Numbered from the stretch's first letter, positions 4,970 to 64,000 are shown. The stretch is DNA of 64,000 nucleotides from Candidatus Omnitrophota bacterium (GCA_041649175.1 JBAZNR010000001.1:1103497-1167496); one strand, 5' to 3'. Translations and numbers: made by a program. The notes: a model not told the origin generated them from the sequence alone.

Positions 4970-5559
4970 CCTTTGCCCTCAGAATCTTTTAGAATAAATC
5001 CTTCCAGCGGTTCATAAATCGGCCCCTTAGCGGTTAAAGTGCTTTTGAACAAAATAATCTTGTCTATCTCTTGAGTTATCGGGAAATCAATAGAGTATTC
5101 GTTTAGCGCTTTGATAAGATCAGAACAATGATGCGATGATCGTAAGCGCCCCAGCGTAATATGGGCATTAAATTCTTGATGTTCTCCTTTTGGAAAGCCA
5201 GCTTCAATCAGTTCATTTTTAATGGCTTCCGACAATTGCCTTGTTTTGTCTTGGCCTTTCTTCCCGCCAATCCAAATAGTTCTAGGTTTTTCTAAGCTAG
5301 GAAAACCGCCTAATTCCGATAGCTCAAATGGGAAAACAGAAAAGTGACGAGAAACTCTGCTAAGGGCTTTTTTAACTTCATTGATTTGATTTTCAGAAAT
5401 TTCACCTAAGAATTTAAGCGTAAGATGGCTGTTGTTAGGATCGACCCATTTAATGTCAGCGTTTGCGCCCTTTAAATATTCCTGGCATTGGCGGATAAGT
5501 TCTTGGGATTCTTTGGAAATTTCGACGGCGATAAAAGAACGCACGGTTGATAGCGTCAT
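4966..5559 (-). CDS. thpR: RNA 2',3'-cyclic phosphodiesterase (2H phosphoesterase, LigT/ThpR)
   Basis: Two H-x-T/S-x motifs, HLTLKFLGE and HITLGRL, at the expected spacing. Confidence 0.75.
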   Translation of the reverse strand: MTLSTVRSFIAVEISKESQELIRQCQEYLKGANADIKWVDPNNSHLTLKFLGEISENQINEVKKALSRVSRHFSVFPFELSELGGFPSLEKPRTIWIGGKKGQDKTRQLSEAIKNELIEAGFPKGEHQEFNAHITLGRLRSSHHCSDLIKALNEYSIDFPITQEIDKIILFKSTLTAKGPIYEPLEGFILKDSEGKG

Positions 5560-6457: not shown

Positions 6458-7666
6458 ATGATGTTTAATTCTATTCCGGAGATCATCGAAGAGCTCAAAC
6501 AAGGTAAAGTTGTTATTGTTATGGATGATGAAGGCCGTGAGAACGAAGGGGATTTGCTAGTGGCGGCTCAATTTGCCAAAGCCGAACACATTAACTTTAT
6601 GGCGAAAGAAGCCAGGGGGCTTATTTGCGTTCCCATGGAAGAAGAAAGGCTCAACGCTCTTGACCTTCACCCGATGGTTGATGATACGATCGTTAATCGG
6701 CCTCATCAAAAAAGCAATACGGCTTGGACAATTTCGGTAGATGCCTCAAAAGGGGTTACAACCGGTATCTCGGCATCGGACAGAGCCAAGACAGTCGAGG
6801 TTTTAATAGACCCAAAATCAGTATCGGCGGATCTAGAAACGCCCGGACATCTTTTTCCTTTGCGGGCGCGTAAAGGCGGAGTATTGGTGCGCGCCGGCCA
6901 CACGGAAGCTTCCGTTGACCTGATGCGCTTAGCCGGCCTTTATCCGGCCGGGGTTATTTGCGAGATCATGAATGAAGACGGGACCATGGCTCGTACCCAA
7001 GACCTCATCGAATTTTCTAAAAAGCACAAAATTAAAATTTGCACCATCGATAGCCTTATCGAATACCGTCGGAAGTATGAAAAATTGATCGAGCGGCAAG
7101 TTGAAACAACGCTTCCCACACCTCATGGTAATTTTCGTATGATCGGGTATGAATCAAAAGTTGACGGGGCATGTCATTTGGCTTTAGTGCTGGGCAATGT
7201 CAACGGAACGATCCCTGAGTTAGTGCGCGTTCAGTCGGAATGTTTGACCGGAGATGTTTTTGGCTCGCATCGCTGTGATTGTGGAGAACAACTGCATCAA
7301 TCACTTGAAATGATCAAAAAAGCCGGATCGGGAATTTTACTTTATATGCGTCAAGAAGGGCGCGGCATCGGGCTTCTTAACAAAATGAAGGCCTATCACT
7401 TGCAGGATGGAGGGCTTGACACCGTAGAAGCCAATGAGGCGCTGGGATTTTCCGCCGATTTAAGGGATTATGGCATTGGAGCCCAGATTTTAGTTGACCT
7501 GGGAGTAAAAAAAATCCGTCTGCTCACTAATAACCCCAGAAAGATCGTCGGATTAGAAGGCTATGGATTGACGGTTTCCGAGCGCATTCCCATAAAAGTT
7601 TCTCATAATCCGGCGAATGAGGGCTATCTTAAAACAAAAAAAGAAAAGTTAGGCCATTTATTGTAA
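6458..7666 (+). CDS. ribBA: Bifunctional 3,4-dihydroxy-2-butanone 4-phosphate synthase / GTP cyclohydrolase II
   Basis: DHBP synthase N-terminal half ([11 protein letters not shown]) and GTP cyclohydrolase II half (CDCGEQL...[12 protein letters not shown]). Confidence 0.9.
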
Positions 7667-13550: not shown

Positions 13551-13587
13551 GAGCCTTGCGCCAAGCTTGCAGCTTGGCGCAAGGCTC
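13551..13587 (+). terminator. Perfect 17-bp inverted repeat with a 3-nt loop after fabZ. Likely a transcription terminator or protein-binding palindrome
   Basis: GAGCCTTGCGCCAAGCT-TGC-AGCTTGGCGCAAGGCTC, followed by moderately T-rich sequence. Confidence 0.45.
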
Positions 13588-48248: not shown

Positions 48249-49565
48249 ATGAAAACACAGACCAGGGTTTTTAAGTTTCTTTTTTTATTGGGCGTCTTTA
48301 CGATTTTCCTTTTGAACAATCCTCTTCAAAAATATTCCGCAGGTGTTTCTACAGCTCGGGCAGTTTTTGCCGAAGAAGAAACAAAAACTGCCCCCGTAAG
48401 CGCGAATCCTCATCAGGCATATCTTGATTTCTTTGAGCGTGTTTACGACATGATGGACAAGAATTATTATCGCCCCGTTAGCCGGCAAGTTTTTGATCAG
48501 TTTGTCGAGAAATTTGATTCGGCCATTTACGCCAAGCTTGCGGCGAGCGGCAAGTCCAGTGATTTTATCCGGTGGCGCAGCGCGGCTTTTTTAGTAGAAA
48601 ACCTTAAATCTCCCGAAGATACTTTTTCGGCATTTTTCCCGCCGAAACCGGCAAAAGATTTTGAGCAAAAAGTTTTAGGCGAGCGTGTTGATCTTGGCAT
48701 TGAAGGAAAAGCGGCCGCCGAAGGTTATATTGTTTCTCGCGTAGAGCCTCGTTCGGATGCGTATCTCAAAGGCTTAAGAGAAAATGATATCATTTTTAAA
48801 ATTGCCGGTTTGGATATCCGGACATTATCCGAAGAAAAGATCAATGAACTGCTCAATCCTTTAATGGACACGCTGGTCAGCCTTCAATATAAAGAATACG
48901 CGACCAAGCAGGAGAAAACCGTTGATGTTTTAAGTCAGGAGTATTACAAGCAGTCGGTTTTTATGGTTCCGGTTGATGTTCCCGGGATTTTTTGTTTAGA
49001 AATTCGTACATTCAATCGAAAAACATCCGAAGATATGTTGCTTTTTCTGTCTTCGATCGAACAGCAGGGCAGCTTAGGGCTGATCTTGGACCTACGCGGA
49101 AATCCCGGCGGTCCGCCTTTAGCGGCCGGTGAAATTGCCGGATTCTTTTTACCCGGCGGCCCGGAAATTGCTTACTTCCAGAGGAAAGACAATCCGACCG
49201 GAATGTTAACGGCGGCTGATCTTCCGGAAAAATATCATTATAAGGAACCCATTGTGATCCTGGTCAACAAAGAAAGCGGCAGCGCGTCCGAGTTGTTTTC
49301 CGGTGTTTTGCAAAAGTTCGGCCGGGCAATCTTGATGGGCGACTATACAGCCGGAAAAGTTTTGCTTAAAAGCATGTTCCATTTTGACGATGAATCGATG
49401 GTCCTTTTAGTAACAGCCCGCGGTCATTTTTATGATGGGTCGGAATTTAGTTTTGACGGGTTAAAGCCCGATGTTCTGACTGCGGAAAACGATGCTGATC
49501 TTGCGCGTTCCGCGGCGCATTTTCTTTTTCAGAAAAGCCGCTTATCTAAAGAAAAAGGACAATAA
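48249..49565 (+). CDS. ctpA: C-terminal processing peptidase (S41 family, Tsp/CtpA-like) with a PDZ domain
   Basis: Signal peptide. DLRGNPGG and the catalytic Ser/Lys context KESGSASELFSG...TAGKVLLKS. Confidence 0.75.
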   Translation: MKTQTRVFKFLFLLGVFTIFLLNNPLQKYSAGVSTARAVFAEEETKTAPVSANPHQAYLDFFERVYDMMDKNYYRPVSRQVFDQFVEKFDSAIYAKLAASGKSSDFIRWRSAAFLVENLKSPEDTFSAFFPPKPAKDFEQKVLGERVDLGIEGKAAAEGYIVSRVEPRSDAYLKGLRENDIIFKIAGLDIRTLSEEKINELLNPLMDTLVSLQYKEYATKQEKTVDVLSQEYYKQSVFMVPVDVPGIFCLEIRTFNRKTSEDMLLFLSSIEQQGSLGLILDLRGNPGGPPLAAGEIAGFFLPGGPEIAYFQRKDNPTGMLTAADLPEKYHYKEPIVILVNKESGSASELFSGVLQKFGRAILMGDYTAGKVLLKSMFHFDDESMVLLVTARGHFYDGSEFSFDGLKPDVLTAENDADLARSAAHFLFQKSRLSKEKGQ

Positions 49566-52825: not shown

Positions 52826-53722
52826 ATGTCCTATCATAAACTACTAGGTTTCAACGTCGAACCCTTCTCCACAAGCCCCGATCCCGAATTTTTTTATCTT
52901 ACCCGCGAACACGATATGGCCCTTACCAATATCCTCATTGAACTGCGGTTACGCCGCGGCCTTACTGTTATTTTTGGCGATGTCGGCACCGGAAAAACAA
53001 CGCTTTCACGTAAGCTCGTTCAAGAATTAAAAAACCGCGGCGACATTATTTTTCATATGATCCTCAATCCTTCGTTTGAAAGCGAAGAGCAATTTTTAAC
53101 CTCATTGGTGCGCAACTTTGACGTGGATTATTCTTTTTCTCCTCAGTCCACCATGGCCAATATTCTGGATCTGCGCGATGCCATGGAAAAATTTCTTATT
53201 CAAAAATGCGTGGAAGAAAAACAAACGGTGATCCTTATTATTGATGAGGCGCAAAAATTAAATTTAACGACTCTGGAAGTTTTGCGCGTTCTTTTGAATT
53301 TTGAAACCAATGAATACAAATTGATCCAGCTTGTTTTATTGGGGCAGTTGGAACTTTATCCGAAGATCGTTAACATGCCCAACTTCTTGGACCGGATCAG
53401 TTTTAAATACACCTTAAATCCTTTAGGCCCGCAAGAGACGAAAGAAATGATCGAGTTTCGTATCCGTAAGGCTGGATATAATTCTTCGGCTAAACTTTTC
53501 AATGACGAAGCCATCAGCGAAATTTATACGTATTCGCGCGGTTATCCGCGGCGCATTACCATGTTGTGTCATCAGGCGCTCAAAGAATTAGTTTTACAGA
53601 ACAAGTACATTGTGGACCGCGTGATCATCCGCGATGTGATCGAGAAAGATAGAAAAGCGGAATTTGACCGCGCAGATATCGCGCCCAAAACAACGTATCA
53701 AAAGATCCAAGATATTAGCTGA
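52826..53722 (+). CDS. AAA ATPase of the ExeA/GspA/MshM family (secretion/pilus assembly)
   Basis: Walker A GDVGTGKTTLSRKL, Walker B IILIIDEAQKL. Size and organisation match MshM-type soluble ExeA-like ATPases. Confidence 0.7.
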   Translation: MSYHKLLGFNVEPFSTSPDPEFFYLTREHDMALTNILIELRLRRGLTVIFGDVGTGKTTLSRKLVQELKNRGDIIFHMILNPSFESEEQFLTSLVRNFDVDYSFSPQSTMANILDLRDAMEKFLIQKCVEEKQTVILIIDEAQKLNLTTLEVLRVLLNFETNEYKLIQLVLLGQLELYPKIVNMPNFLDRISFKYTLNPLGPQETKEMIEFRIRKAGYNSSAKLFNDEAISEIYTYSRGYPRRITMLCHQALKELVLQNKYIVDRVIIRDVIEKDRKAEFDRADIAPKTTYQKIQDIS

Positions 53723-53765: not shown

Positions 53766-54473
53766 ATGGAAAAAAAAGAGACAGCCGAGAAGAAACTTCT
53801 AAAACTTATCGAAAGCTCTGGCTCCAGCGCGGAAGCTAAAACGCCGGCCGCGTCCGATGTGGCTATGCAAGTGGCTGCCGCGGTCAAAGAGACGGGTTTT
53901 TCTGTTCCCAATGCCGCATCTTTCTTGGCTCCCATCCTTGATCTTTTTCGCGGAAAATTTTCCTCAACCGCTAATTCTGTTTTAACCTTTGGCTTAAGAG
54001 AGGCTAATCAGCTTTTGGCAGTTATTGTCGGAGGCTTGCTGATCTTTTCTATTGCCAGTATGGTCAGAGACACAAAAATACTGGAAGAAAGAGTTTTGAC
54101 ATCGGTGAATATCCCCGAAATTGAAAGCGTGGAAAACGATGCGGTTCCGCAGAAAAAAGATGTCTCCGATTATTTGGCATCGGTAGAAAAGCGCAACATC
54201 TTCCAGCCGTTTGAAAAAAAGCCGGAAGAAAAAATTGTCGATGCATCTTCCGGATCGCCGCAGATCGCTACCATTGCTAAAAATTATAAACTCGTTGGGA
54301 TTTCTTGGCTTGACTCTCCGGATTCCGCTTCGGCATTGATCGAAGACACGCAAAGCGGTAATACCTTTTTCTTAAAGAAAGGCGAGAAGATCAGCAACAT
54401 CACTATTAAGGATATTTTTGCGGATCGTGTTATTTTAACCTACCAAGGCGAGGATGTTGCCATAAAGCTATGA
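53766..54473 (+). CDS. Bitopic inner-membrane protein with a C-terminal PilP/GspC-HR-like beta domain. Putative secretin-interacting protein
   Basis: Central TM LLAVIVGGLLIFSIASMV. C-terminus YKLVGISWLDSPDSASALIEDTQSGNTFFLKKGEKISNITIKDIFADRVILTYQGEDVAIKL follows the PilP/GspC pattern. Overlaps the secretin start. Confidence 0.45.
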   Translation: MEKKETAEKKLLKLIESSGSSAEAKTPAASDVAMQVAAAVKETGFSVPNAASFLAPILDLFRGKFSSTANSVLTFGLREANQLLAVIVGGLLIFSIASMVRDTKILEERVLTSVNIPEIESVENDAVPQKKDVSDYLASVEKRNIFQPFEKKPEEKIVDASSGSPQIATIAKNYKLVGISWLDSPDSASALIEDTQSGNTFFLKKGEKISNITIKDIFADRVILTYQGEDVAIKL

Positions 54474-56161
54474 GCCATTCTTTTAAAAAGATCTTTCTTT
54501 CCTTGTGTTTGGCGATAGGCATGTTTTTGTCTGCGCCTTCGTTCATTCTTTCTCAGGATGCCGATAACGGCGCGCCTGCCAATACAGAAAACGCGCAAGA
54601 CGCTCAGTCGGCGCCTTCCAAAGTTGTTCCTGTAAGCCCAACCGATATTCCTAAACCGATCGTGCTTGACGCGCCCAAGGAAACGTTGGAGCAAAGGCTT
54701 CTGCGAAAGATCACTTTAGATGTGCGCGATATGAATATCGTTGATGTGATCAAGTTTTTAGCGCTTAAAGGAGATTTCAATGTGGTGACCAGCCGCAATG
54801 TCGGAGGGCGCGCGACACTCTTTTTAAAGAATGTTTCCATCCGGGACGTTTTGGATATTGTTCTGATTTCCAATAAATTGGCGTATCAGCTTCAAAACGA
54901 TATTGTTTATGTTATGTCGGAAGACGAATATTTAACGATGTATGGCAAGAAATACAATGATAAAAGCGAAGTGGCCATCATCCATTTGTACTATGCCAAG
55001 CCAAGTTATGTTCTAGCAACGCTAGACACGATGAAAAGTGCTTTAGGAAAAGTGATCATTGATGAAGATACGGGCTCGGTGGTCATGATCGATACGCCGC
55101 AAACCATTGCCAATATGAAAAGAGCCATCGATGATATGGAAAGCCCGTTGGAAACCTATATCTATACTTTGCAATATGCCAAGGCCGATGTGATCTCTGA
55201 AAAGTTAAAAGCCCGGGTTGATGCCAATGCCGTTGGTTCTATCACGCCCGATGAACGTTCGAATCAGATCATCGTGCGGGCGCTTCCGGGGCGCCGCGAA
55301 GAAGTGGAGGCGATGATAAAAACCCTGGATGTTAAAACGAAGGAAGTTTTAATTGAGGCGCGCGTCCTGCAAGTTGTTCTAAAGCCGACGTTTAATATGG
55401 GCATTGACTGGAACATGAATTTTACCGATAGCAATGATCCTGAAATTAAAAAATTAACTTTTGGAAATACATTTCTCAATGAGGCGGTTTTAACATCCAG
55501 CAATCCTTTGTCGGCCGCGTTTAGCAAAATTGCTATCGGCAATATTGATGTTGATCATTTTGAATCAGCCATTCGGGCTTTAAAGCAGGTAAGTGATACA
55601 AAAATCCTTTCCAACCCTAAGCTTTTGGTGACCAACAATGAAGAGGCAAAAATTCATATCGGTGACACGATCCCTTATATCATTTCCACAACATCAGGGA
55701 CCGGGGACAATGCCGTTACCAGCGAAGATGTTCGCTTTGTTGACGTGGGCCTCAAGTTGTTAGTAACGCCCGCCATCAACGATGATGGGTTTGTCACCAT
55801 GCGCTTAAAGCCGGAGATCTCAACAGTCGTTGACAAAATAGAATCAAAAGGCGGCGGTATCCCGCAGATCAATAAAACCGAACTTGAAACAACCGTTATG
55901 GTCAAAGACGGCAACACGATCATCATGGGCGGTTTGAAAAAGGATGATAAAACGCATACTAAAAAAGGCTTGCCGTTTTTGATGGATATTCCGTTTTTAG
56001 GCCGGCTTGTCAGTTCAACTTCGGACAGCATTACGTCCACTGAGATCGTTATTTTCATAACACCTCATGTTGTTTCGGGAGAATCAACCTATACAAGCTA
56101 TGACGGGTCGATCAAACCGCTTAAAGACTATGGCGAGATCGAAGATTTGCGCAAGGAATAG
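54470..56161 (+). CDS. Secretin (GspD/PilQ/MshL family outer-membrane channel)
   Basis: Signal peptide. N0/N1-like domains. C-terminal secretin domain with LVTNNEEAKIHIGDTIPYI...GLPFLMDIPFLGRLV. Confidence 0.85.
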   Translation: MSHSFKKIFLSLCLAIGMFLSAPSFILSQDADNGAPANTENAQDAQSAPSKVVPVSPTDIPKPIVLDAPKETLEQRLLRKITLDVRDMNIVDVIKFLALKGDFNVVTSRNVGGRATLFLKNVSIRDVLDIVLISNKLAYQLQNDIVYVMSEDEYLTMYGKKYNDKSEVAIIHLYYAKPSYVLATLDTMKSALGKVIIDEDTGSVVMIDTPQTIANMKRAIDDMESPLETYIYTLQYAKADVISEKLKARVDANAVGSITPDERSNQIIVRALPGRREEVEAMIKTLDVKTKEVLIEARVLQVVLKPTFNMGIDWNMNFTDSNDPEIKKLTFGNTFLNEAVLTSSNPLSAAFSKIAIGNIDVDHFESAIRALKQVSDTKILSNPKLLVTNNEEAKIHIGDTIPYIISTTSGTGDNAVTSEDVRFVDVGLKLLVTPAINDDGFVTMRLKPEISTVVDKIESKGGGIPQINKTELETTVMVKDGNTIIMGGLKKDDKTHTKKGLPFLMDIPFLGRLVSSTSDSITSTEIVIFITPHVVSGESTYTSYDGSIKPLKDYGEIEDLRKE

Positions 56162-56228: not shown

Positions 56229-57302
56229 ATGAATAAGGCCACCAATAGATCTAAAAAGGAAAATTTAAGGATTGTTTTGTGCGTAGGAGCCGGCATGGCG
56301 CTCGTGATCGGCGCGCAAGGTGCTCATCTTGGGGCGGCTGTTGAAGATGTCGAAGTGGTAGAAACGGAAATTACTTCCGAGCAGATCTTATCTGATGAAC
56401 AAAACGCTCAAGGTGAAAGACCAGCTGCCGGCGGCAGTGTCAACGATAGCTTAGATGACTTATCGATGGCTGAACGGCAAATGGCGGTGATCAATACGAC
56501 ACTAAAAAATGTGATCGAAGAAAATAAGAAGCTTCTCGATGAGAAAGTTAAGATTGAAAATGAACTGAAAGAATTACGCGGTCAAACTGAGATCCGCGCG
56601 AGCCGCCTGAACACCTTAACGCGCCAGCGAGATGAATTAGAAAAGCGAATTACGGACACGGAGGAAGCTCAGGGGCAATATGCGTTAGAAATTGAACAGC
56701 TCAAAAAAGACCTTGCGGACAAAGAAAAGGAGCTGACCGAGAAATTAACGACTATGCAGGAGGCGCAGGCGAAAGAAAAAGAAGAGCAAGAAAAGGCCAT
56801 GGCGATGGTTTTGCCGGGGCAAAAAGATGCCGCGGCCGTAGCGGAGTCGAAAAAACAGCTTCAAGATATTAAAATGCAGGCCAAGGAAACATTAAATAGC
56901 GTGGAAGATAATGTCAAAAGAATTGCCGGGCAGATCTCTGAGCTTAATTTGGAAAATAAAAAGCTCAAGCAGGATTCGGTCAAGCTTCACTACAATATGG
57001 GGAATAATTATTTTGAACAGGGAAAATATAAAAAGGCGGCCGCCGAATATCAGCGGGTCATTGACTTAACGCCTAACGATGCGGCGGCGCATTATAATTT
57101 GGCGTTTGTCGCTAGTGAATTCTTAAAAGATCAAAAACTCGCTTTGGAACATTATCAGCAGTATTTATATCTTAGCCCGGATGCGGAAGATGCGCTTTTG
57201 GTGAAAGAGAAAATATTGCATGCGCAGCTAACACTTAAAACTCAAATTGACTCGGTGATCGAAGAAAAACCTAAGAAAATAAAAGCGGCAAAAGATAAAT
57301 AG
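56229..57302 (+). CDS. Membrane-anchored coiled-coil protein with C-terminal TPR repeats (MshN-like)
   Basis: N-terminal TM. Long heptad-rich segment. TPR-like YNMGNNYFEQGKYKKAAAEYQRVIDLTPNDAAAHYNLAFV. Confidence 0.55.
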   Translation: MNKATNRSKKENLRIVLCVGAGMALVIGAQGAHLGAAVEDVEVVETEITSEQILSDEQNAQGERPAAGGSVNDSLDDLSMAERQMAVINTTLKNVIEENKKLLDEKVKIENELKELRGQTEIRASRLNTLTRQRDELEKRITDTEEAQGQYALEIEQLKKDLADKEKELTEKLTTMQEAQAKEKEEQEKAMAMVLPGQKDAAAVAESKKQLQDIKMQAKETLNSVEDNVKRIAGQISELNLENKKLKQDSVKLHYNMGNNYFEQGKYKKAAAEYQRVIDLTPNDAAAHYNLAFVASEFLKDQKLALEHYQQYLYLSPDAEDALLVKEKILHAQLTLKTQIDSVIEEKPKKIKAAKDK

Positions 57303-57306
57303 TTTT

Positions 57307-59037
57307 TTGGATTTTTTTATGACGCAATTTATCAAGAAATTTTTCTTGTTGAAAATGGACTTTGGGCGAAAAGCCCCGAAAACGGGGCTTTTCGCCCCGA
57401 TTTTCCTTTTTTCTTTCTGCCTTTGGTCTTTGGTCTTTAGTCTTTGGCCTGCTGCGCCTGTCCTCGCCAATAATCTTGCGATCTCCAATGTCACCATGAG
57501 CACCCGTGATCCGGCTAATGACACTTTTATTCTACAATTTGATGTTTCTTGGAATAATTCTTGGCGCAACAAGATCAATCACGATGCCGTTTGGCTGTTT
57601 GTTAAAGTCGATACCGGCACAGCGCCGTATTCTCATTGCTTGATGAAAACTTCCGGCGCCAGCCCAACAGGATTTTCCGCAGGCTCAGACTCGGATCTGG
57701 CGATCTATGTTCCAACGGATAAAATGGGCGCGTTTTTACGGCCTTCAGCGTCTCAAGCTATGGGAAATATCTCAACAACAAGTGTCCAACTAAAGGTAGA
57801 TTACGGCGCTAGTAGCTGCAACATCGCGGATACCGCCAGCATCACGCCTTACGTTTACGGCATTGAAATGGTCTTTGTTCCAACGGGTTCGTTTTACGCT
57901 GGAGATTTTCCAACTTCGAGTAGCGCATTTAGGCAGGGCTCTGCAGATGCCGATCCTTGGTATATCACGAGCGAGGGAACTATTGCTGTCCAAAATGTAG
58001 CGTCTGATGGGTATTATTATAAAAATTCCGGCTACATAACTCCTCCTAATGAATTCTCCGATGGAACGGTTTTTACTATCCCTGCTGTTTTTCCTAAGGG
58101 TTACGCGGCTTTTTATGCCATGAAATATGAATTGACCGAAGGGCAATGGGTAAGTTTTTTTAACACGCTTACAACAGATCAAAAAAATACTCTGGATATA
58201 ACGGGCAATGTTACAAACATGGGGATTGTACTCGGTGGAAAAAATTCTGATAGCTTAATATACCGCAACACGGTTAGTTGGGATTCCGGAACGCCCACAG
58301 TGGCCGCTGTAACAACCCGAGGTGATCGTGCCATGAGCTACATTTCATGGGTTGATCTTTGTGCTTATTTGGATTGGGCAGGTCTACGTCCAATGACAGA
58401 ATTGGAATATGAAAAACTTGCTCGTGGTCCGGTTATTCCCGTGCGAGATGAGTATGCCTGGGGTAGCACAGATTTTGTAAAAGCTGTGACAATTTTGACG
58501 GCCATAGGCTCTGAGGACGGCGCGGAAACGATCACAACCACGGACGGAGTTACGCACGCAAACATATTTGTTCCTCCGGTTGGAGGTTCGGCTTACGTGG
58601 GGGGAGACGACTACATCGGAACGCATGGCGCCAGCGGGCCGTTGAGGGCAGGCATTTTTGCTACTGCCACGTCAGACCGAGTGATGAGCGGAGCTGGCTA
58701 TTATGGAGCGATGGAATTAAGCGGGAATTTAAAAGAGATGGTCGTAACTGTTGCGAGCACTGTTGGAATTGGATTTATTGGCAATCACGGAGATGGGGCA
58801 TTGACTAGTGGTGGTTGTTACGGTTGTGCTGATGTTACCGGCTGGGTACAGCTTACAGGCGCAGGAATTATCCTCGGCAGTGGTTCTGGTACCCGAGGCG
58901 GCGGGTGGGGGTCTCCGGTAGCGGGTGGTGACGAAAAAACAATTTCCTATCGCGGCCTTTGGATATCTGGTTATTCAACCAATACCAGATCTCCTGCTAT
59001 GGGCGGGCGCGGTGTTCGCACATATGATGGCAGTTAA
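57307..59037 (+). CDS. Secreted FGE/SUMF1-fold (formylglycine-generating-enzyme family) domain protein, paralog A
   Basis: Signal peptide ending VLA|NN. FGE-sulfatase domain blocks VFVPTGSFYAGD, FYAMKYELTEGQWVSFFN and VSYISWVDLCAYLDWAGLRPMTELEYEKLARG. TTG start; the true start is uncertain. Confidence 0.65.
   Translation: MDFFMTQFIKKFFLLKMDFGRKAPKTGLFAPIFLFSFCLWSLVFSLWPAAPVLANNLAISNVTMSTRDPANDTFILQFDVSWNNSWRNKINHDAVWLFVKVDTGTAPYSHCLMKTSGASPTGFSAGSDSDLAIYVPTDKMGAFLRPSASQAMGNISTTSVQLKVDYGASSCNIADTASITPYVYGIEMVFVPTGSFYAGDFPTSSSAFRQGSADADPWYITSEGTIAVQNVASDGYYYKNSGYITPPNEFSDGTVFTIPAVFPKGYAAFYAMKYELTEGQWVSFFNTLTTDQKNTLDITGNVTNMGIVLGGKNSDSLIYRNTVSWDSGTPTVAAVTTRGDRAMSYISWVDLCAYLDWAGLRPMTELEYEKLARGPVIPVRDEYAWGSTDFVKAVTILTAIGSEDGAETITTTDGVTHANIFVPPVGGSAYVGGDDYIGTHGASGPLRAGIFATATSDRVMSGAGYYGAMELSGNLKEMVVTVASTVGIGFIGNHGDGALTSGGCYGCADVTGWVQLTGAGIILGSGSGTRGGGWGSPVAGGDEKTISYRGLWISGYSTNTRSPAMGGRGVRTYDGS
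57365..57396 (+). terminator. Perfect 14-bp hairpin GGCGAAAAGCCCCG-AAAA-CGGGGCTTTTCGCC followed by a T-rich run. Terminator-like, embedded in the 5' coding region of FGE-like paralog A
   Basis: Seen directly. 63 nt after the upstream stop. It overlaps codons for the signal-peptide n-region (GRKAPKTGLFAP). Confidence 0.5.
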
Positions 59038-59063
59038 AAAACAGGGTTTAGTGTTTAGGAATT

Positions 59064-60704
59064 ATGCTTAGGTTTCAAGATATGAGAAAAACGTTTTCTA
59101 TTTTTTTTCTTTGGTCTTTCGTCTTTAGTCTTTTGTCTATTGTGCCTGCTTTTGCCAACAACTTACAGATTGCTAACTTTTATGATTACAGCACCGACAC
59201 CTCTGCCAACACTATGACTTTCACCTTTAATGTCACGCAAGACAATAGCTGGAGAAACGCCACCAATTATGATGCTGTATGGATGTTTATGAAGTATTCA
59301 ACCGATGGCGGAGCTAGTTGGAATCATGGCAGCATGTCCGCATCCGGCACTAATCCAACAGGCTTTAACGCGCCTACCGGATTTGAAATAAAAGTCCCGG
59401 CGGATGAAAAAGGATTTTTCTTGCAAAGAACCGATCTTGCCGCGGGAAGCATTTCCGCCTCAGGTGTTCGCGTAGTCTGGGATTATGGCCAAGATGGGCT
59501 GTCGGATGCGACCGCACAAGCCGGCAATACAACCTTGAAAATTTTTGGGCTAGAAATGGTTTATATTCCTGAAGGATCGTTTTATGCGGGGGATGCGAGC
59601 GGCGGCAATTTAACGGCAGTATTAAAGCAAGGTAGTGCCGATGAAGATTCTTGGTATATTGCAAGCGAAAATGCAATAAATGCCACAAACGCATCGGCAG
59701 ACGGATATTATTATTTCAGTGCGGGGCAAAATGATGAAGATGTAGACGGAGCTACCTTTCTTATTCCCGCTCAATTTCCTAAAGGTTATCAGGCATTTTA
59801 CTTGATGAAATATGAGCTGACTGAAGGCCAGTGGGTGTCATTTTTTAATACGTTAACGACTGACCAAAAAACGATCCGCGATATTACGAGTTCAACAGCA
59901 GGCGGAAAAAATTCCGATGCAGTTATCTTAAGAAACACAATTAGCTGGGATTCAGCTTCGCCTTTAAAAAATGCTAAGACAACCCGCCCCGATAGAGCGG
60001 TTTCTTATATCGGCTGGCCCGATATTTGCGCCTATGCCGACTGGGCTGCGCTTCGTCCTTACACGGAGTTAGAGTTTGAAAAAGCCGCCAGAGGCGCAGG
60101 TATTACTGCAGTATCGGGTGAATACGCTTGGGGTAATACAACGATTACAGCCGCGGCTACTTTTTCCGGAACTCCGGAAAATGGAACTGAAACAATCGCA
60201 ACGGCAAGCGCTAATGCTAACTACAACAATACGGCTTTTAGTCTTGGCGACGACTACTTAGGTGTTCAATATACCCGCGGGCCTGTTCGTGTAGGAATTT
60301 TTGCGACAAGCGTTTCAACGCGGACGACTGCCGGTACTGGATATTATGGCAATATGGAGTTGTCAGGAAATCTCTGGGAGCCGACGGTTACGGTAGGAAA
60401 TTCCTGGGGACGAGTATTTTTAGGAACCCACGGCGATGGAACGTTGACAACTTTAGCCAGCTATGAAGGCAATGCGACAAATTTAGATTGGCCAGGCTTT
60501 AATTCAGCTAATCCAACGCGGGGTGTTAACGGAACTAAAGGAAGCGGTTACAAAGGCGGTGGTTTTGAGACGGACTCCTTTGAAAGGCTTGGCACATCAA
60601 GCCGAAGAAAAGTTGCTGCAAATGCGGAAAGCGACGCGAGCACAAGCTACAGGTCTCATGGCGGACAATTTTTTGCCGGCAGGTTAGCTCGCACGGCAGA
60701 TTGA
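59064..60704 (+). CDS. Secreted FGE/SUMF1-fold domain protein, paralog B (tandem duplicate of A)
   Basis: Same blocks as A (MVYIPEGSFYAGD, FYLMKYELTEGQWVSFFNTLTTDQK, VSYIGWPDICAYADWAALRPYTELEFEKAARG). Homologous signal peptide ending AFA|NN. Confidence 0.65.
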   Translation: MLRFQDMRKTFSIFFLWSFVFSLLSIVPAFANNLQIANFYDYSTDTSANTMTFTFNVTQDNSWRNATNYDAVWMFMKYSTDGGASWNHGSMSASGTNPTGFNAPTGFEIKVPADEKGFFLQRTDLAAGSISASGVRVVWDYGQDGLSDATAQAGNTTLKIFGLEMVYIPEGSFYAGDASGGNLTAVLKQGSADEDSWYIASENAINATNASADGYYYFSAGQNDEDVDGATFLIPAQFPKGYQAFYLMKYELTEGQWVSFFNTLTTDQKTIRDITSSTAGGKNSDAVILRNTISWDSASPLKNAKTTRPDRAVSYIGWPDICAYADWAALRPYTELEFEKAARGAGITAVSGEYAWGNTTITAAATFSGTPENGTETIATASANANYNNTAFSLGDDYLGVQYTRGPVRVGIFATSVSTRTTAGTGYYGNMELSGNLWEPTVTVGNSWGRVFLGTHGDGTLTTLASYEGNATNLDWPGFNSANPTRGVNGTKGSGYKGGGFETDSFERLGTSSRRKVAANAESDASTSYRSHGGQFFAGRLARTAD

Positions 60705-60721
60705 GTTTTTAGAAATAAATA

Positions 60722-63700
60722 ATGAACTTATTAAATAAAATTTTCCAAAACAGGAATCAAAAAGATGAAAGGCGAAAAAATGCCTATAGGCATTTTTTCG
60801 CCCCATTCGTCTTTTCATTTCTTGTGTCTTTGGTCTTTGGCCTCTGGTCTCCTCTGACTGCTTTCGCCCAATACACCGGTGGCAGTTATGACGGCGGCGC
60901 CGACACGACTTTAGGCGATAATATTACAACCGGCGGTTCCTATGACGGTTTTTCCAGCGGTGCGTCGTCAGCTGGCTATGCCGGTCAGGGCGCTCCCAGC
61001 TACGTTTCCTTTTCCAATACCGTTCCTACAACTCAGCGTAACAGCTATTTTAATCCTCAGCCTAAGCTCCTTTTAAAAGACGCCGCCGGAAATACCATTA
61101 CCCATGGCACCTGGTCTGATGATACGGTAACCCTTTCTATTTATAATAATCCTTCCAACGGCACGCTTTCTGGTACAACCGGTATTACCTTTACGTCCGG
61201 CATTGCCGGCTTCACTTATCAGGGCCTTCGTATTGATAATCCCGGTGAGCTTTATACGCTTAAAGCAACCTTGCAGTCCGACACAACGATTGTCGGAACT
61301 TCCAATAGTTTTGATATTCTTAGCGGTGAATTTGTCCTCAAGTCGGCGGTCTTGCCCTTTGCCAGCTATCCTGAATCTCGTAAAGTTGTAGTCTGGCTAG
61401 AAGATCCGGTGGGTAATATCGTTACCCTTAATACAGTAGGCACTCCTTCCGGTAGCGTTGCAATTTATAGCGATGACGGCACATACAATTCGGATTGCGG
61501 AACTAGCGCTAACGAAGATTGCTCAGCAGGAAATATAGGCTTGGAGCCTCTTGCTGATGCAGATGGCACAACACGGACTGTTCAATATCCGGCAACTGAT
61601 CAATCTGGAGCCTATGGCACCAAAGCCTGGCGGCCGGATTTTACAAAATCCTATCGGTATCGTGCAACATTAACGGCAAATGGCGCGACATACACCGGCA
61701 TGTTTGATTATACGCCGCCCGAAGAATTTTCTGTTAAGACAGCGATCTTGGATTCTACCGGGAGCGGTAAATTTGCTCCGCAAGCCTGGATAGAAATTGA
61801 TGGCCAAAGAGTCACCTTCGATGCAAGCCGCCCTGACTCTGCGACAGTGACGATCACCGATGCTCAGGGATTAGGAGCAGTTGGTGATTGCGGTGGTGGC
61901 AGTTGCACTGCCATTGACATGACTTTGGACGCCGATATTTTTTATTATTATTTTTGGGAACCTGCCGATTTCTTAACTGGCTATCGCGGAAAAGTAGAGA
62001 TCACCTATGCGTATCATACCTATACGACCTATGCGACCTATGATCCTAGTTCATACTACATGGGGACTCTGCAAGGCAGCTTAGATACTATCGCAGCCAA
62101 AACCAACACCATCAACTGGACCAATATTACCGACATTAAATCCGCCACCGATACTATCAATTGGACCAATGTTACCGATATTAAATCTGCTACCGACACC
62201 ATTAATTGGCTTGATGTCGGCGTTTTAACATCCGGTACGGCGGCTATTCAAGCGGTCACCGATCTTTTATCTCCCATCAACTGGGATGATGTCGAAGTTC
62301 TCACCAAACAAGGGATTAACTGGGCTGACTTTGACCGTATGTCGGATGTCGGTATTAATTGGGAAGATTTGTATGTGTTGTCATCCGCCGGGATTAATTG
62401 GTCTGACCTAGATATCCTTTCGGACGCCGGTGTCAATTGGATGGACATTGATGTTTTATCGGACTCTGGAATTAATTGGTCTGATTTAGACGCATTTTCT
62501 GACGCGGGTATTAACTGGCTAGATATCGATATCCTAGCTGATGCGCTTATTAATTGGGACGACTTAGCCTTTATGGCGTCTGCCGGTGTTAACTGGTTTG
62601 ATGTCGCCTACATGAGCGGAGTGGGGACAAATTGGACATACGCCATTAATTGGGACAGCTTAGCCGAGTTAACAACAGCGGCTGTGAACTGGGCGGATAT
62701 GACGGTAATGTCCAGCGCTGGGCTCAATTGGTATGACCTGGAAGTGATGACCGATGCCGGAGTGAACTGGGAAGACGTGGGCGTTTTAAGCGCTACGGGC
62801 ATTAACTGGGTTGATTTGGATATCCTTTCAGATGCTGGCGTAAACTGGGGTGACTTAGATGTGCTTTCCAATACCGGTATCAACTGGCTTGATTTTGATG
62901 TGCTTTCTGACGCCGGCATCAACTGGATCGATTTGGATAAACTGTCAGATGCCGGTATCAATTGGGTGGATTTTGACAGTCTGTCCGATTCAGGTATTAA
63001 TTGGATTGATTTGGATATTTTGTCCGATGCAGGTGTTAAATGGGCTGACTTTGCCACTCTGACCAACGCCGGGATCAACTGGGTCGATTTGGATAAACTG
63101 TCAGATGCGGGCATTGCATGGTCTGACTTTTCCACTCTATCCAAGGCCGGTATCAATTGGGCGGATTTTGATATTTTGTCGGATGCGGGGATCAATTGGG
63201 TGGATTTGGATAAGTTTTCTGATGCCGGTATTAACTGGCTTGATATCGACATCCTCGCGGATAAGGGAATTAATTGGCTAGACTTGGACGTCCTATCCGA
63301 TGCGGGGATCAATTGGCTGGATATCGATACGATTTCAAATACTGGCATCAACTGGGTTGATTTTGACGTCTTATCCGATGCGGGAGTTAATTGGTCAAAT
63401 TTAGGCGCGCTTTCCGAAGCCGGCATAAACTGGACAGATTTGAATGTTCTCTCCGAGACCGGCATCAATTGGCTGGATCTGGATGTCTTGACCAATACGG
63501 GAATCAACTGGATTGACTTAGATGCGCTGGCAGATGCCGGGATCAATTGGTCGGACATCGATGTTATTTCCAAAACGGGTATCAATTGGAATGACTTGGA
63601 CATCCTCTCTGATGCAGGCATCAACTGGAGTGACTTGGACACCTTATCTAAGGCCGGTATCAATTGGTCGGACTTGGACGTCCTCTCTGATACGGGTATT

Positions 63701-64000
63701 AACTGGAGTGATTTGGATGTCTTATCTAAGACAGGCATTAATTGGAGCGATATTGACGTTCTTTCCGATGCGGGGGTCAACTGGCTGGATATCGACATCC
63801 TCTCTGACATCGGTATCAATTGGTCGGACTTGGACATCCTCTCTGACACCGGCATCAATTGGTCGGATCTGGACACCTTATCTAAAGCCGGTATCAACTG
63901 GAGCGACCTGGACGTCCTTTCTGATACAGGTATTAATTGGAGTGATTTGGATGTCTTATCTAAGACCGGTATCAATTGGAGCGATATTGACGTTCTATCC
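60722..64000 (+). CDS. Very large secreted protein, 3' partial: the frame is open to the window end at more than 1090 codons. A ~460 aa non-repetitive N-terminal region is followed by at least 45 tandem 13-residue repeats G-I-N-W-x-D-[LIF]-D-x-L-S-D-[AT]
   Basis: Manual translation from the ATG at 60722 shows no stop through 64000. Signal peptide homologous to those of the two FGE paralogs (AFA|QY). The ORF track lists no complete frame-0 ORF, consistent with read-through. Confidence 0.6.
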   Translation, partial: MNLLNKIFQNRNQKDERRKNAYRHFFAPFVFSFLVSLVFGLWSPLTAFAQYTGGSYDGGADTTLGDNITTGGSYDGFSSGASSAGYAGQGAPSYVSFSNTVPTTQRNSYFNPQPKLLLKDAAGNTITHGTWSDDTVTLSIYNNPSNGTLSGTTGITFTSGIAGFTYQGLRIDNPGELYTLKATLQSDTTIVGTSNSFDILSGEFVLKSAVLPFASYPESRKVVVWLEDPVGNIVTLNTVGTPSGSVAIYSDDGTYNSDCGTSANEDCSAGNIGLEPLADADGTTRTVQYPATDQSGAYGTKAWRPDFTKSYRYRATLTANGATYTGMFDYTPPEEFSVKTAILDSTGSGKFAPQAWIEIDGQRVTFDASRPDSATVTITDAQGLGAVGDCGGGSCTAIDMTLDADIFYYYFWEPADFLTGYRGKVEITYAYHTYTTYATYDPSSYYMGTLQGSLDTIAAKTNTINWTNITDIKSATDTINWTNVTDIKSATDTINWLDVGVLTSGTAAIQAVTDLLSPINWDDVEVLTKQGINWADFDRMSDVGINWEDLYVLSSAGINWSDLDILSDAGVNWMDIDVLSDSGINWSDLDAFSDAGINWLDIDILADALINWDDLAFMASAGVNWFDVAYMSGVGTNWTYAINWDSLAELTTAAVNWADMTVMSSAGLNWYDLEVMTDAGVNWEDVGVLSATGINWVDLDILSDAGVNWGDLDVLSNTGINWLDFDVLSDAGINWIDLDKLSDAGINWVDFDSLSDSGINWIDLDILSDAGVKWADFATLTNAGINWVDLDKLSDAGIAWSDFSTLSKAGINWADFDILSDAGINWVDLDKFSDAGINWLDIDILADKGINWLDLDVLSDAGINWLDIDTISNTGINWVDFDVLSDAGVNWSNLGALSEAGINWTDLNVLSETGINWLDLDVLTNTGINWIDLDALADAGINWSDIDVISKTGINWNDLDILSDAGINWSDLDTLSKAGINWSDLDVLSDTGINWSDLDVLSKTGINWSDIDVLSDAGVNWLDIDILSDIGINWSDLDILSDTGINWSDLDTLSKAGINWSDLDVLSDTGINWSDLDVLSKTGINWSDIDVLS
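60771..60802 (+). terminator. Perfect 14-bp hairpin GGCGAAAAAATGCC-TATA-GGCATTTTTTCGCC in the 5' coding region of the repeat-protein gene. Analogous to the hairpin in paralog A
   Basis: Seen directly. 67 nt after the upstream stop. Same outer stem GGCGAAAA/TTTTCGCC as at 57365, with compensatory inner changes. Confidence 0.45.
62100..64000 (+). repeat. 39-bp (13-codon) in-frame tandem repeat array encoding GINWxDLDxLSDA units. Continues beyond the window
   Basis: Visible periodicity of ggtatcaattggtcggacttggacgtcctctctgat-type units. It also creates a spurious long antisense ORF. Confidence 0.8.

What the first reader, a model, noticed from the sequence alone, without database searches (positions are those of the whole stretch)
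57340..60810. Conserved terminator-like hairpin embedded in the signal-peptide n-region of all three cargo genes
Each of the three genes carries a hairpin followed by T-rich sequence about 50-65 nt after the previous stop codon. In the annotated reading frame it lies inside the n-region of the signal peptide. The hairpin at 57365-57396 is GGCGAAAAGCCCCG-AAAA-CGGGGCTTTTCGCC. The one at 60771-60802 is GGCGAAAAAATGCC-TATA-GGCATTTTTTCGCC. A weaker AGAAAA-ACG-TTTTCT plus T9 sits at 59085-59108. The outer stems are identical in the first and third copies, and the inner base pairs differ by compensatory changes. This argues for selection on RNA structure. The element could terminate the upstream transcript, act as an attenuator or translation-control element at the start of each cargo gene, or mean the true start codons are mis-assigned.
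Basis: seen in the sequence. Interest (0 to 1): 0.65.

Follow-up and report, generated by a model that had tools for sequence, protein, structure and literature searches.

The report
Perfect palindromes inside two signal-peptide codings
Two of the three claimed hairpins are real, exceptionally stable, terminator-shaped palindromes written in frame into the start of two exported-protein genes of an uncultured Omnitrophota bacterium; they most likely act on the operon's RNA, though a mutational by-product is not excluded.

Summary
The palindromes at 57364-57397 (15 bp, loop 4, -31 kcal/mol) and 60771-60802 (14-16 bp, -21 kcal/mol) are real. They rank 2nd and 4th among all 40-nt folds on the + strand of the 64-kb window. 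Both share GGCGAAAA/TTTTCGCC arms. Five of the six inner pairs differ on both sides and still pair. They lie in frame, in the same codon phase, in long signal-peptide n-regions. No start codon lies downstream of either.

The third "hairpin" (59085-59099) is noise (-1.9 kcal/mol).

The element is not a dispersed repeat: there are two copies in about 77 kb of this genome. Orthologous junctions in seven other Omnitrophota loci lack this sequence. Strong hairpins nevertheless recur at cistron junctions of the same secretin-TPR-FGE-FGE-giant-protein operon. One relative (L201) has a perfect 16-18-bp GGCG...CGCC palindrome at the same n-region/h-region boundary, in another codon phase.

Best reading (about 0.4): these are junction RNA hairpins, acting as partial terminators or decay barriers, placed in the permissive n-region. 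Main rival (about 0.3): DNA-level "perfected" quasi-palindromes that are tolerated there. This fits the complete absence of G-U pairs, the zero-spacer centres, and the complete turnover of the core.

The parts
56229..57302 (+). Upstream cistron: coiled-coil/TPR protein with a signal peptide. It is the last gene of the secretin module (AAA 52826, GspC-like 53766, secretin 54470).
   Evidence: Pfam TPR_11 etc., Secretin, T2SSC, AAA_22. The same gene order is seen in L201, L202, L205, L206 and L208.
57303..57363 (+). Junction 1 leader. It has 16 nt of spacer, ATG 57319 (the gene caller's start) and a second in-frame ATG at 57355. It is very AT-rich (GC 0.23) and has no clear Shine-Dalgarno sequence.
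57364..57397 (+). Palindrome 1: 15-bp perfect stem, AAAA loop. It codes GRKAPKTGLFAP in the n-region of FGE-domain protein 1. Its 3' half can also form an alternative hairpin, CGGGGC-UUUUC-GCCCCG (57383-57399), followed by AUUUUCCUUUUUU.
57421..57447 (+). 7-nt tandem repeat (CTTTGGT x3.9) coding the hydrophobic core of signal peptide 1. The signal peptide ends at 57468 (VLA|NNL).
   Evidence: The cleavage motif A-N-N-L is conserved in more than 100 homologues.
59085..59099 (+). Claimed third hairpin AGAAAA-ACG-TTTTCT in gene 2 (start 59064 or 59082). It is not significant.
   Evidence: -1.9 kcal/mol, 15 of 200 shuffles as good. Regional z +0.79. Best 5' fold of gene 2 is -7.2.
59108..59138 (+). 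7-nt tandem repeat (x4.4) coding the hydrophobic core of signal peptide 2.
60705..60770 (+). Junction 3 leader. It has 17 nt of spacer and ATG 60722, the only in-frame start of gene 3. GC is 0.18. An out-of-frame ATG at 60765, with AGGA 9 nt upstream, sits in the lower stem.
60771..60802 (+). Palindrome 3: 14 bp plus a UAUA loop as RNA, or 16+16 with no spacer as DNA. It codes RRKNAYRHFFA(P) in the n-region of the 1369-aa repeat protein. The helix extends through 60760-60815 (10 more pairs).
   Evidence: (141-nt region -46.6 kcal/mol, z -7.56).
60826..60850 (+). 7-nt tandem repeat (x3.6) coding the hydrophobic core of signal peptide 3. The signal peptide ends at 60868 (AFA|QY).

Best explanation
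The two palindromes are RNA stem-loops that belong to the cistron junctions of one long operon: ExeA-like AAA, GspC-like, secretin, TPR, FGE-1, FGE-2, large repeat protein. In this compact genome the next reading frame opens only 16-17 nt after the previous stop. The junction hairpin therefore cannot sit in a spacer. It is written instead into the most sequence-tolerant part of the next gene, the basic n-region of its unusually long (about 50 aa) signal peptide.

On the transcript, the hairpin forms 62-67 nt behind the upstream stop codon. It either stops a fraction of polymerases (A-tract, GC core, U-tract: a partial, bidirectional-type intrinsic terminator) or blocks 3'-to-5' decay of the upstream segment. 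Either way the operon is divided into three expression units: the secretion machinery, the FGE pair, and the large protein.

A ribosome that has started at the upstream ATG melts the hairpin. Read-through into the costly downstream gene would then be favoured when that gene is being translated.

Shown: the structures, their stability, their frame, their position, and the recurrence of junction hairpins in relatives.
Inferred: formation in vivo, termination or protection, and coupling to translation.
For: - Shape. Both keep an A-run (4 or 6), a G+C-containing core and a T-run (4 or 6), while the core sequence is completely different. That is what a terminator requires.
- The consensus scan ranks them as the two best terminator-like sites in 50-64 kb.
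- The only sub-threshold Rfam matches are to models of small RNAs and a leader element; I take these to match on a terminal hairpin, though no alignment was inspected.
- Position. They start 62 and 67 nt after stop codons, at two junctions of one co-oriented, tightly packed gene string with no promoter-like site in the junctions.
- Gene 2, the partner of gene 1, has none. This gives a sensible partition: machinery | FGE pair | large protein.
- Recurrence in relatives, with unrelated sequences:
  - L207 junction 1 has a perfect 10-bp hairpin plus GCTTTTTC, then GGGAGG and ATG.
  - L206 junction 1 has a -18.4 kcal/mol hairpin directly before AAGGAGG-ATG.
  - L201 junctions 2 and 3 have -12.6 and -20.8 kcal/mol spacer hairpins.
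  - L201 FGE-2 has a 16-18-bp palindrome at the same n/h boundary, followed by GCGTTTTTGTATTTTT. Its GGCG...CGCC clamp is in a different codon phase, so the constraint is on nucleic acid, not peptide.
- Enrichment. 14 of the 36 strongest hairpins in six loci lie within -100..+180 of a gene start, against 7.5 expected (P about 0.01). All five hairpins at or below -30 kcal/mol are centred +61..+120 from a start.
- Paralogues outside the operon (P0002, P0041) have no hairpin.
Against: - The hairpins are inside reading frames, where ribosomes unwind them.
- The U-run is part of the stem. After the complete stem come CGAUUUUCC and CCAUUCGUCUUUU, not an immediate U-tract.
- Other operon ends inspected in the window show no classical terminators. 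The scan finds 17 terminator-like sites against 16.3 expected.
- No downstream promoter is evident, so efficient termination would starve genes 1-3.
- The in-frame palindromes (two in the window, two in L201) together have about 60 pairs. None is G-U and none is mismatched, and two have self-complementary centres. This is more than an RNA hairpin needs.
- The core is 12/16 diverged while the arms are 0/16 diverged. That is not how stems under purifying selection usually evolve.
- Four of eight loci have no strong hairpin at any cargo junction.
Confidence: 0.4

Rival explanations
1. The palindromes are a DNA-level product with no dedicated function. A signal peptide is a natural quasi-palindrome, because Lys/Arg codons (AAA, CGA) face Phe codons (TTT, TTC). 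Strand-switch (templated) replication errors 'perfect' and extend such quasi-palindromes. The result survives only where the protein tolerates any sequence, namely n-regions and the linkers after signal peptides.
For: - Gene 2 shows the seed state AGAAAA-ACG-TTTTCT.
- All in-frame palindromes are perfect Watson-Crick with no G-U. Two have no spacer (TATA, TGCA centres).
- The spacer hairpin in L201 has, by my reading of the fold, G-U pairs; this was not separately computed.
- The core has turned over completely while the arms are identical. One templated event changes both arms at once.
- Every in-frame perfect stem of 10 bp or more in the window lies in a permissive N-terminal segment of an exported protein. 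This includes 48358-48393 in the S41 peptidase gene, which is outside the secretin operon.
- L201 TPR (13 bp) and L202/L205 GspC-like (11 bp) palindromes lie in Ala/Pro-rich linkers.
- The distribution among orthologues is sporadic and lineage-specific.
Against: - Both copies keep exactly 32 nt and identical 8-nt arms, although the flanks are only about 77% identical.
- A/T-tracts flank a G+C core, as in terminators.
- The palindromes coincide with cistron junctions, where relatives carry non-coding hairpins.
- The GGCG...CGCC clamp is present in 4 of 6 long palindromes (about 2e-4 even for G+C-only ends, my estimate).
Confidence: 0.3
2. The hairpin acts on translation or export. A very stable hairpin 46-50 nt after the start codon slows the first ribosomes, or limits re-initiation after the upstream stop to the nearby ATG. 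This would tune synthesis of exported proteins or coordinate it with targeting to the Sec machinery.
For: - All carriers are exported or membrane proteins.
- The hairpins are 46-50 nt after the ATGs. Those ATGs lie 16-17 nt after the upstream stop and lack a Shine-Dalgarno sequence, which suggests termination-reinitiation coupling.
- The lower stems enclose a second AUG: 57355 in frame, 60765 out of frame.
Against: - The position relative to the hydrophobic core is inconsistent. It is before the core in the window and L201 FGE-2, and after it in L201 TPR and the S41 peptidase.
- A pause before the hydrophobic core has been synthesised cannot help targeting.
- Most homologues (over 85% of 120 N-termini) have short ordinary signal peptides.
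Confidence: 0.12
3. Mis-assigned starts: the hairpins are ordinary intergenic terminators and the genes begin downstream of them.
For: - The sequence between the upstream stop and the hairpin is AT-rich like non-coding DNA (GC 0.18-0.23 against 0.43).
- In L206 and L207 the junction hairpin does precede the ribosome-binding site and start.
Against: - No ATG, GTG or TTG lies between either hairpin and the hydrophobic core. The first candidates (TTG in gene 1, GTG 60823 in gene 3) would leave an uncharged stub too short to be a signal peptide.
- The basic residues of both n-regions are coded by the 5' arm.
- Orthologues of gene 3 have similarly long n-regions: MNKKNLSAQIISVSTRTRKGRFFA in L201 and MINLRFLRFKNLNFSAWRT in L202.
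Confidence: 0.05
4. The palindromes are a mobile or recombination element: a REP-like dispersed palindrome, an integron attC-like site, or the target hairpin of a diversity-generating retroelement (FGE/C-type-lectin folds are typical targets).
For: - Conserved outer arms with a variable centre.
- Position shortly after stop codons of co-oriented genes.
- The signal-peptide module is shared by unrelated mature proteins. The paralogue P0002 has the same mature N-terminus with a different signal peptide.
Against: - There are only two copies in 64 kb, none in L003 (12.7 kb, same contig) and none in L001 (17.6 kb, same sample).
- No attC core sites are present.
- Among the nine products of the secretin operon that were scanned against Pfam there is no integrase, transposase or reverse transcriptase; the rest of the window was not scanned.
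- No template-repeat-like copy of the 3' ends of genes 1 or 2 exists in the window.
- The element is in frame inside a continuous signal peptide.
Confidence: 0.05

Closest known systems
Rho-independent (intrinsic) terminators, especially bidirectional ones, and ORF-internal/premature 3' ends found by 3'-end mapping (e.g. E. coli, PMC7815308)
   Same: A-tract, G+C stem, short loop, T-tract. Strictly Watson-Crick, so both strands fold. Located tens of nt after a stop codon. Sequence is free and structure is kept. Gain and loss between species is rapid.
   Different: Lies in frame inside the next gene. A GGCG/CGCC clamp closes the stem beyond the U-run. No immediate U-tract follows the full stem. 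No 3' ends have been mapped.
Intercistronic stem-loops that stabilise upstream mRNA segments (REP in malE-malF, the puf operon hairpins; from my own knowledge)
   Same: Very stable hairpins at cistron junctions of a long operon, giving graded expression. L206 and L201 have such hairpins in spacers without U-tracts.
   Different: Here the hairpin is translated. It is not a repeated family.
Rickettsia palindromic elements (in-frame palindromic insertions in protein-coding genes; from my own knowledge)
   Same: Palindromic DNA carried in frame in tolerant parts of proteins.
   Different: Those elements are 100-150 bp and dispersed in many genes, with sequence similarity. Here the palindromes are 32-36 nt, there are two copies, and no family is evident.
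Quasipalindrome-templated mutation (strand-switch 'perfection' of imperfect inverted repeats; from my own knowledge)
   Same: Explains perfect arms, zero-spacer centres, and multi-base 'compensatory' changes in one step.
   Different: It is a mutational process, not a functional element. It does not explain the tie to junctions or the conserved clamp.
Neisseria Opa phase variation by CTCTT repeats in the signal-peptide coding region (PMC3745409 is on Opa phase variation; the location of the CTCTT repeats in the signal-peptide coding region is from my own knowledge). This bears on the neighbouring 7-nt repeat, not the hairpin.
   Same: A tandem repeat whose unit is not a multiple of 3 codes the hydrophobic core of a signal peptide. 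It reads as hydrophobic in every frame.
   Different: Only 3.6-4.4 imperfect units. No copy-number variation has been observed.

Membership tests
Intrinsic terminator | G+C-containing stem of 5-15 bp with a 3-8 nt loop | tested here: met
   15 bp with loop 4, and 14 bp with loop 4. Core hairpins fold at -11.2 and -7.5 kcal/mol.
Intrinsic terminator | U-tract immediately 3' of the stem | tested here: inconclusive
   U4 and U6 follow the core stem but are themselves paired with the A-tract and closed by CGCC. After the full stem come CGAUUUUCC and CCAUUCGUCUUUU.
Intrinsic terminator | Lies in non-coding DNA after a gene | tested here: not met
   62-67 nt after the upstream stop, but in frame inside the next ORF. 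No downstream start exists.
Intrinsic terminator | RNA 3' ends map to the U-tract | not testable with these tools
   No transcript data available.
REP-like dispersed palindrome | Many copies across the genome, mostly intergenic | tested here: not met
   2 copies in 64 kb, 0 in L003 and L001. The whole 1.226-Mb contig could not be scanned.
Integron attC site | R''/R' core sites (RYYYAAC...GTTRRRY), extrahelical bases, nearby integrase | tested here: not met
   Arms are GGCGAAAA/TTTTCGCC with perfect pairing. None of the nine operon products scanned against Pfam is an integrase.
Diversity-generating retroelement target hairpin | Template repeat matching the 3' end of the target gene, plus a reverse transcriptase nearby | tested here: not met
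   No second copy of the 3' ends of genes 1 or 2 in the window. None of the operon products scanned is a reverse transcriptase.
Leader-peptide attenuator | Mutually exclusive terminator and antiterminator hairpins | tested here: inconclusive
   Copy 1 has an alternative hairpin at 57383-57399 (-11.4 kcal/mol) followed by AUUUUCCUUUUUU. Copy 3 has none.
Any Rfam family | Score at or above the gathering threshold | tested here: not met
   Only two tRNAs in the window. In 57200-60950 the best hits are far below threshold.
Phase-variable repeat in a signal peptide (Opa type); applies to the adjacent 7-nt repeat | Tandem repeat with a unit not divisible by 3 inside the signal-peptide coding region | tested here: met
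   Period 7, 3.6-4.4 copies in all three genes. Also present in L001 and L002.
Phase-variable repeat in a signal peptide (Opa type) | Copy number varies between clones or reads | not tested
   Needs read-level data.

The most novel reading that the evidence does not exclude
The stretch from the previous stop codon to the signal-peptidase site would be a portable 'export cassette' of this Omnitrophota lineage. It would comprise a short spacer, an ATG, an AT-rich leader, a strictly Watson-Crick terminator-like palindrome with a free core, and a hydrophobic core coded by a frame-independent 7-nt repeat. The palindrome would couple continued transcription of secretion-system cargo (including very large proteins) to their translation. 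The repeat would allow recombination between cargo genes or on/off switching.
Probability: 0.07. Interest if true: 0.7.

Novelty: new variant of a known kind. Interest (0 to 1): 0.42.

Why it matters
Omnitrophota are uncultured. Their conserved type II secretion-like loci sit upstream of very large or giant genes (bioRxiv 10.1101/2023.11.21.568195), and how expression along these long operons is graded is unknown.

If the junction hairpins terminate or stabilise RNA, they show how a compact genome places regulatory RNA structure inside coding sequence by using the tolerant n-region of a signal peptide. They would also be a ready target for Term-seq on enrichment cultures or metatranscriptomes.

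If they are instead templated palindromes, they are a clean natural example of strand-switch mutation shaping signal peptides. They would also be a caution against reading two-sequence 'covariation' as RNA selection.

Tried and rejected
1. Dispersed-repeat test in public collections.
74 of 121 hits had no further pairing.
   - The 18-base version in metagenome contigs gave 76 hits, none from the source genome. Some belong to unrelated dispersed palindromes of other organisms.
2. A profile of the five signal peptides against the protein database was too short to reach significance.
3. Mis-assigned start: rejected, because there is no start codon downstream.
4. Tat or ESPR-type signal: I saw no twin-arginine motif when reading the sequence, and ESPR was not among the Pfam hits at E <= 0.01.
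5. Diversity-generating retroelement hairpin: no template repeat.
6. Programmed frameshift from the out-of-frame ATG 60765: no slippery site precedes the hairpin (read).
7. Rfam: nothing at threshold.
8. Codon usage of the hairpin codons is unremarkable.
9. The viral contig collection gave only two distant homologues (33-35% identity), with no 5' hairpins.
10. Literature search for this locus. Only the giant-gene preprint gives context. A search for papers on terminators or RNA 3' ends inside reading frames found general 3'-end-mapping studies but none about signal-peptide regions; I did not search for hairpins in signal-peptide codons as such.

Full report
**What is in the sequence**

The window is one end of a 1.226-Mb contig of an uncultured Omnitrophota bacterium. 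The finding lies in a co-oriented gene string, annotated with Pfam:
- an ExeA-like AAA ATPase (52826-53722)
- a GspC-like protein (53766-54473)
- a secretin (54470-56161)
- a coiled-coil/TPR protein (56229-57302)
- two paralogous proteins with an FGE-sulfatase domain: gene 1 at 57319-59037 and gene 2 at 59082-60704, 48% identical
- a 1369-aa repeat protein, gene 3, from 60722

The same order recurs in five other Omnitrophota genomes (secretin-TPR-FGE-FGE-large or giant protein); L207 holds the FGE-FGE-large-protein part and L002 the TPR-FGE part. This fits the published observation that giant Omnitrophota genes follow a type II secretion-like locus.

**The observation**

Two of the three hairpins are exactly as described.
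- 57364-57397 is a perfect 15-bp stem with an AAAA loop.
- 60771-60802 is a perfect 14-bp stem with a UAUA loop. As DNA it is a 16+16 palindrome with no spacer.
- The arm pattern occurs twice in the window and never in 100 shuffles.
- The two fold at -30.8 and -21.3 kcal/mol (z -7.2 and -6.6).
- They rank 2nd and 4th of about 32,000 overlapping 40-nt windows on the + strand.
- Only four perfect stems of 10 bp or more exist in the 64 kb.
- A-rich and U-rich flanks extend both helices. For gene 3 the 141-nt region folds at -46.6 kcal/mol, z -7.56.
- The arms GGCGAAAA/TTTTCGCC are identical in the two copies. Five of six inner pairs differ on both sides, none on one side only, and all cells pair.

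The third 'hairpin' (59085-59099) is not meaningful. It folds at -1.9 kcal/mol, 15 of 200 shuffles fold as well, and the regional z is +0.79. It is simply AGA-AAA (Arg-Lys) facing TTT-TCT (Phe-Ser).

**Coding status**

Both palindromes are read in frame and in the same codon phase: xGG CGA AAA ... TTC GCC CCx, giving GRKAPKTGLFAP and RRKNAYRHFFAP. They supply the basic residues of the n-region just before the hydrophobic core.

No ATG, GTG or TTG lies between either palindrome and the hydrophobic core, so the starts must be upstream: 57319 or 57355 for gene 1, and 60722 for gene 3. The resulting signal peptides are about 50 aa long. Orthologues of gene 3 in L201 and L202 also have long n-regions.

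The leaders between the upstream stop and the palindrome are very AT-rich (GC 0.18-0.23 against 0.43). They begin with an ATG only 16-17 nt after the stop and have no clear Shine-Dalgarno sequence. Codon usage inside the palindromes is ordinary.

The exact gene 1 product, hairpin-coded residues included, is also on record from Logan, a separate collection of assemblies made from public sequencing runs. The palindromes are therefore not assembly artefacts.

**Is it a dispersed repeat?**

There are two copies in the window. There are none in 12.7 kb from elsewhere on the same contig (L003) and none in 17.6 kb of a contig from the same sample (L001). The two large collection scans did not return the source genome, so they say nothing further. 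Within what could be seen, it is not a common dispersed repeat.

**Relatives**

Most of the 120 best homologues have short, ordinary signal peptides.

Loci without the palindrome:
- The nearest syntenic relative, L002 (57% identical protein), has a 163-nt spacer, GGAGG and GTG, and no hairpin.
- L001, L202, L205 and L208 also lack it.
- Paralogues outside the operon lack it too. P0002 has a nearly identical mature N-terminus but a different signal peptide. P0041 is 73% identical to gene 2.

Strong hairpins nevertheless recur at junctions of this operon, with unrelated sequences:
- L207 junction 1 has a perfect 10-bp stem plus GCTTTTTC, then GGGAGG-ATG.
- L206 junction 1 has a -18.4 kcal/mol hairpin directly before AAGGAGG-ATG.
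- L201 junctions 2 and 3 have spacer hairpins of -12.6 and -20.8 kcal/mol that share the loop UUUCUnnCCCAGUUGA.
- L201 FGE-2 carries AGGCGGCTGTGAAGAA-TGCA-TTCTTCACAGCCGCCT in frame (KAAVKNAFFTAAC), immediately before its hydrophobic core and followed by GCGTTTTTGTATTTTT. This is the same architecture as in the window. The GGCG...CGCC clamp is the same but sits in another codon phase.

Further perfect palindromes lie 60-110 nt into other genes:
- the L201 TPR gene (13 bp)
- the L202/L205 GspC-like gene (11 bp)
- the window's S41 peptidase gene (12 bp, 48358-48393)

All three are in linkers of exported or membrane proteins.

Over six loci, 14 of the 36 strongest hairpins lie within -100..+180 of a gene start, against 7.5 expected (P about 0.01). 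All five at or below -30 kcal/mol are centred +61..+120 from a start. In the window, most other genes have nothing comparable in their first 160 nt.

**Interpretation**

The favoured reading (about 0.4) is that these are junction RNA hairpins of a long operon. They would act as partial, bidirectional-type terminators or as barriers to 3' decay. In this genome the next frame opens 16-17 nt after the stop, so they have to sit inside that frame, where the n-region tolerates them.

Points in favour:
- the A-tract / core / U-tract layout, kept while the core is replaced
- the distance from the stop codons
- the sensible partition into machinery | FGE pair | large protein
- the non-coding junction hairpins of relatives

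Points against:
- translation through the hairpin
- the clamp beyond the U-run
- the scarcity of classical terminators elsewhere in the window
- the absence of a downstream promoter

**The main rival**

The main rival (about 0.3) is mutational. Lys/Arg codons facing Phe codons make every signal peptide a quasi-palindrome, and gene 2 shows this seed state. Strand-switch errors can extend and perfect such a quasi-palindrome, and the result survives only in permissive peptide segments.

This explains:
- why the roughly 60 pairs of the in-frame palindromes include no G-U pair and no mismatch
- why two centres are self-complementary
- why the core is 12/16 diverged while the arms are 0/16 diverged
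- why carriers are always tolerant N-terminal segments of exported proteins

It also weakens the covariation argument, because one templated event changes both arms at once.

It does not explain the equal 32-nt length, the arms that are identical amid about 77%-identical flanks, the terminator-like tracts, the clamp, or the tie to junctions.

**Other readings**

- A role in translation or export is possible (about 0.12). It fits poorly with the variable position relative to the hydrophobic core.
- Mis-assigned starts are disfavoured (about 0.05).
- Mobile or recombination elements (REP, attC, retroelement target) are also disfavoured (about 0.05).

**Verdict**

This is a real and statistically exceptional pair of structures. 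Calling it 'conserved in all three genes' overstates it. It is best filed as a coding-embedded variant of junction or terminator-type hairpins, with a serious non-adaptive alternative. It is moderately interesting, and the question is decidable with 3'-end mapping and a whole-genome palindrome census.

Noticed in passing
window 57421-57447, 59108-59138, 60826-60850; L001:8036-8065; L002:1546-1575: The hydrophobic cores of all three signal peptides are coded by a 7-nt tandem repeat (TCTTTGG, 3.6-4.4 units). It reads as the same heptapeptide (SLVFGLW) in every frame. The repeat is kept at the DNA level in relatives whose mature proteins are only 50-57% identical. One unit more or less would shift the frame, as with Opa-type phase variation.
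   Followed up: partly
window 60765 and 60780: Two ATGs in the +1 frame lie in and just before palindrome 3. The first has AGGA 9 nt upstream. Adding one 7-nt unit downstream would bring them into frame with the mature protein.
   Followed up: no
L003:1122-1220 against window 57319-57530: Paralogue P0002, on the same 1.226-Mb contig, has a mature N-terminus almost identical to gene 1 but an unrelated ordinary signal peptide. The break point is at the cleavage site, which suggests that signal-peptide modules are exchanged.
   Followed up: partly
L201:5417-5456, 7229-7268, and copies near 5473 and 7277: Two spacer hairpins with different stems share the loop TTTCTnnCCCAGTTGA. Further CCCAGTTGA copies sit just before the start codons of FGE-2 and the large protein.
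   Followed up: no
window 48358-48393: A perfect 12-bp stem with a 12-nt loop lies in frame in the S41 peptidase gene, just after its signal peptide (RAVFAEEETKTAP).
   Followed up: partly
window 13551-13587: The strongest hairpin of the window: a 17-bp perfect stem, -35 kcal/mol, 31 nt after an ORF end and 125 nt before a tRNA gene. It has no T-tract.
   Followed up: no
L202:2300-2324 and L205:3297-3321: An identical 11-bp G+C palindrome (GCGCAGGCGCC-TGC-GGCGCCTGCGC) lies in the Ala/Pro linker of the GspC-like gene of two different genomes. The window's GspC-like gene has an imperfect -18.6 kcal/mol hairpin at the equivalent place (53846-53885).
   Followed up: partly
window 62000-64000 (gene 3) and minus-strand ORF 62608-63975: Gene 3 consists largely of about 20-aa 'GINWxDLDxLSDA' repeats. 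The 455-aa minus-strand ORF is probably a shadow of these repeats. The Pfam Ntox33 hit has no stretch that passes the threshold on its own, so I treat it as not meaningful.
   Followed up: no
L129, L132, L137, L147, L172, L177, L190, L195 (metagenome hits): An unrelated dispersed palindrome GGTGGGGCGAAAATCTCGGCGCGCCGAGATTTTCGCCCCACC recurs on many contigs of other samples (locus GC about 0.54).
   Followed up: no
L208:11355-17656: In this relative, the gene in the position of gene 3 codes a product of at least 6919 aa that runs off the locus. This links the locus to the giant genes of Omnitrophota.
   Followed up: no
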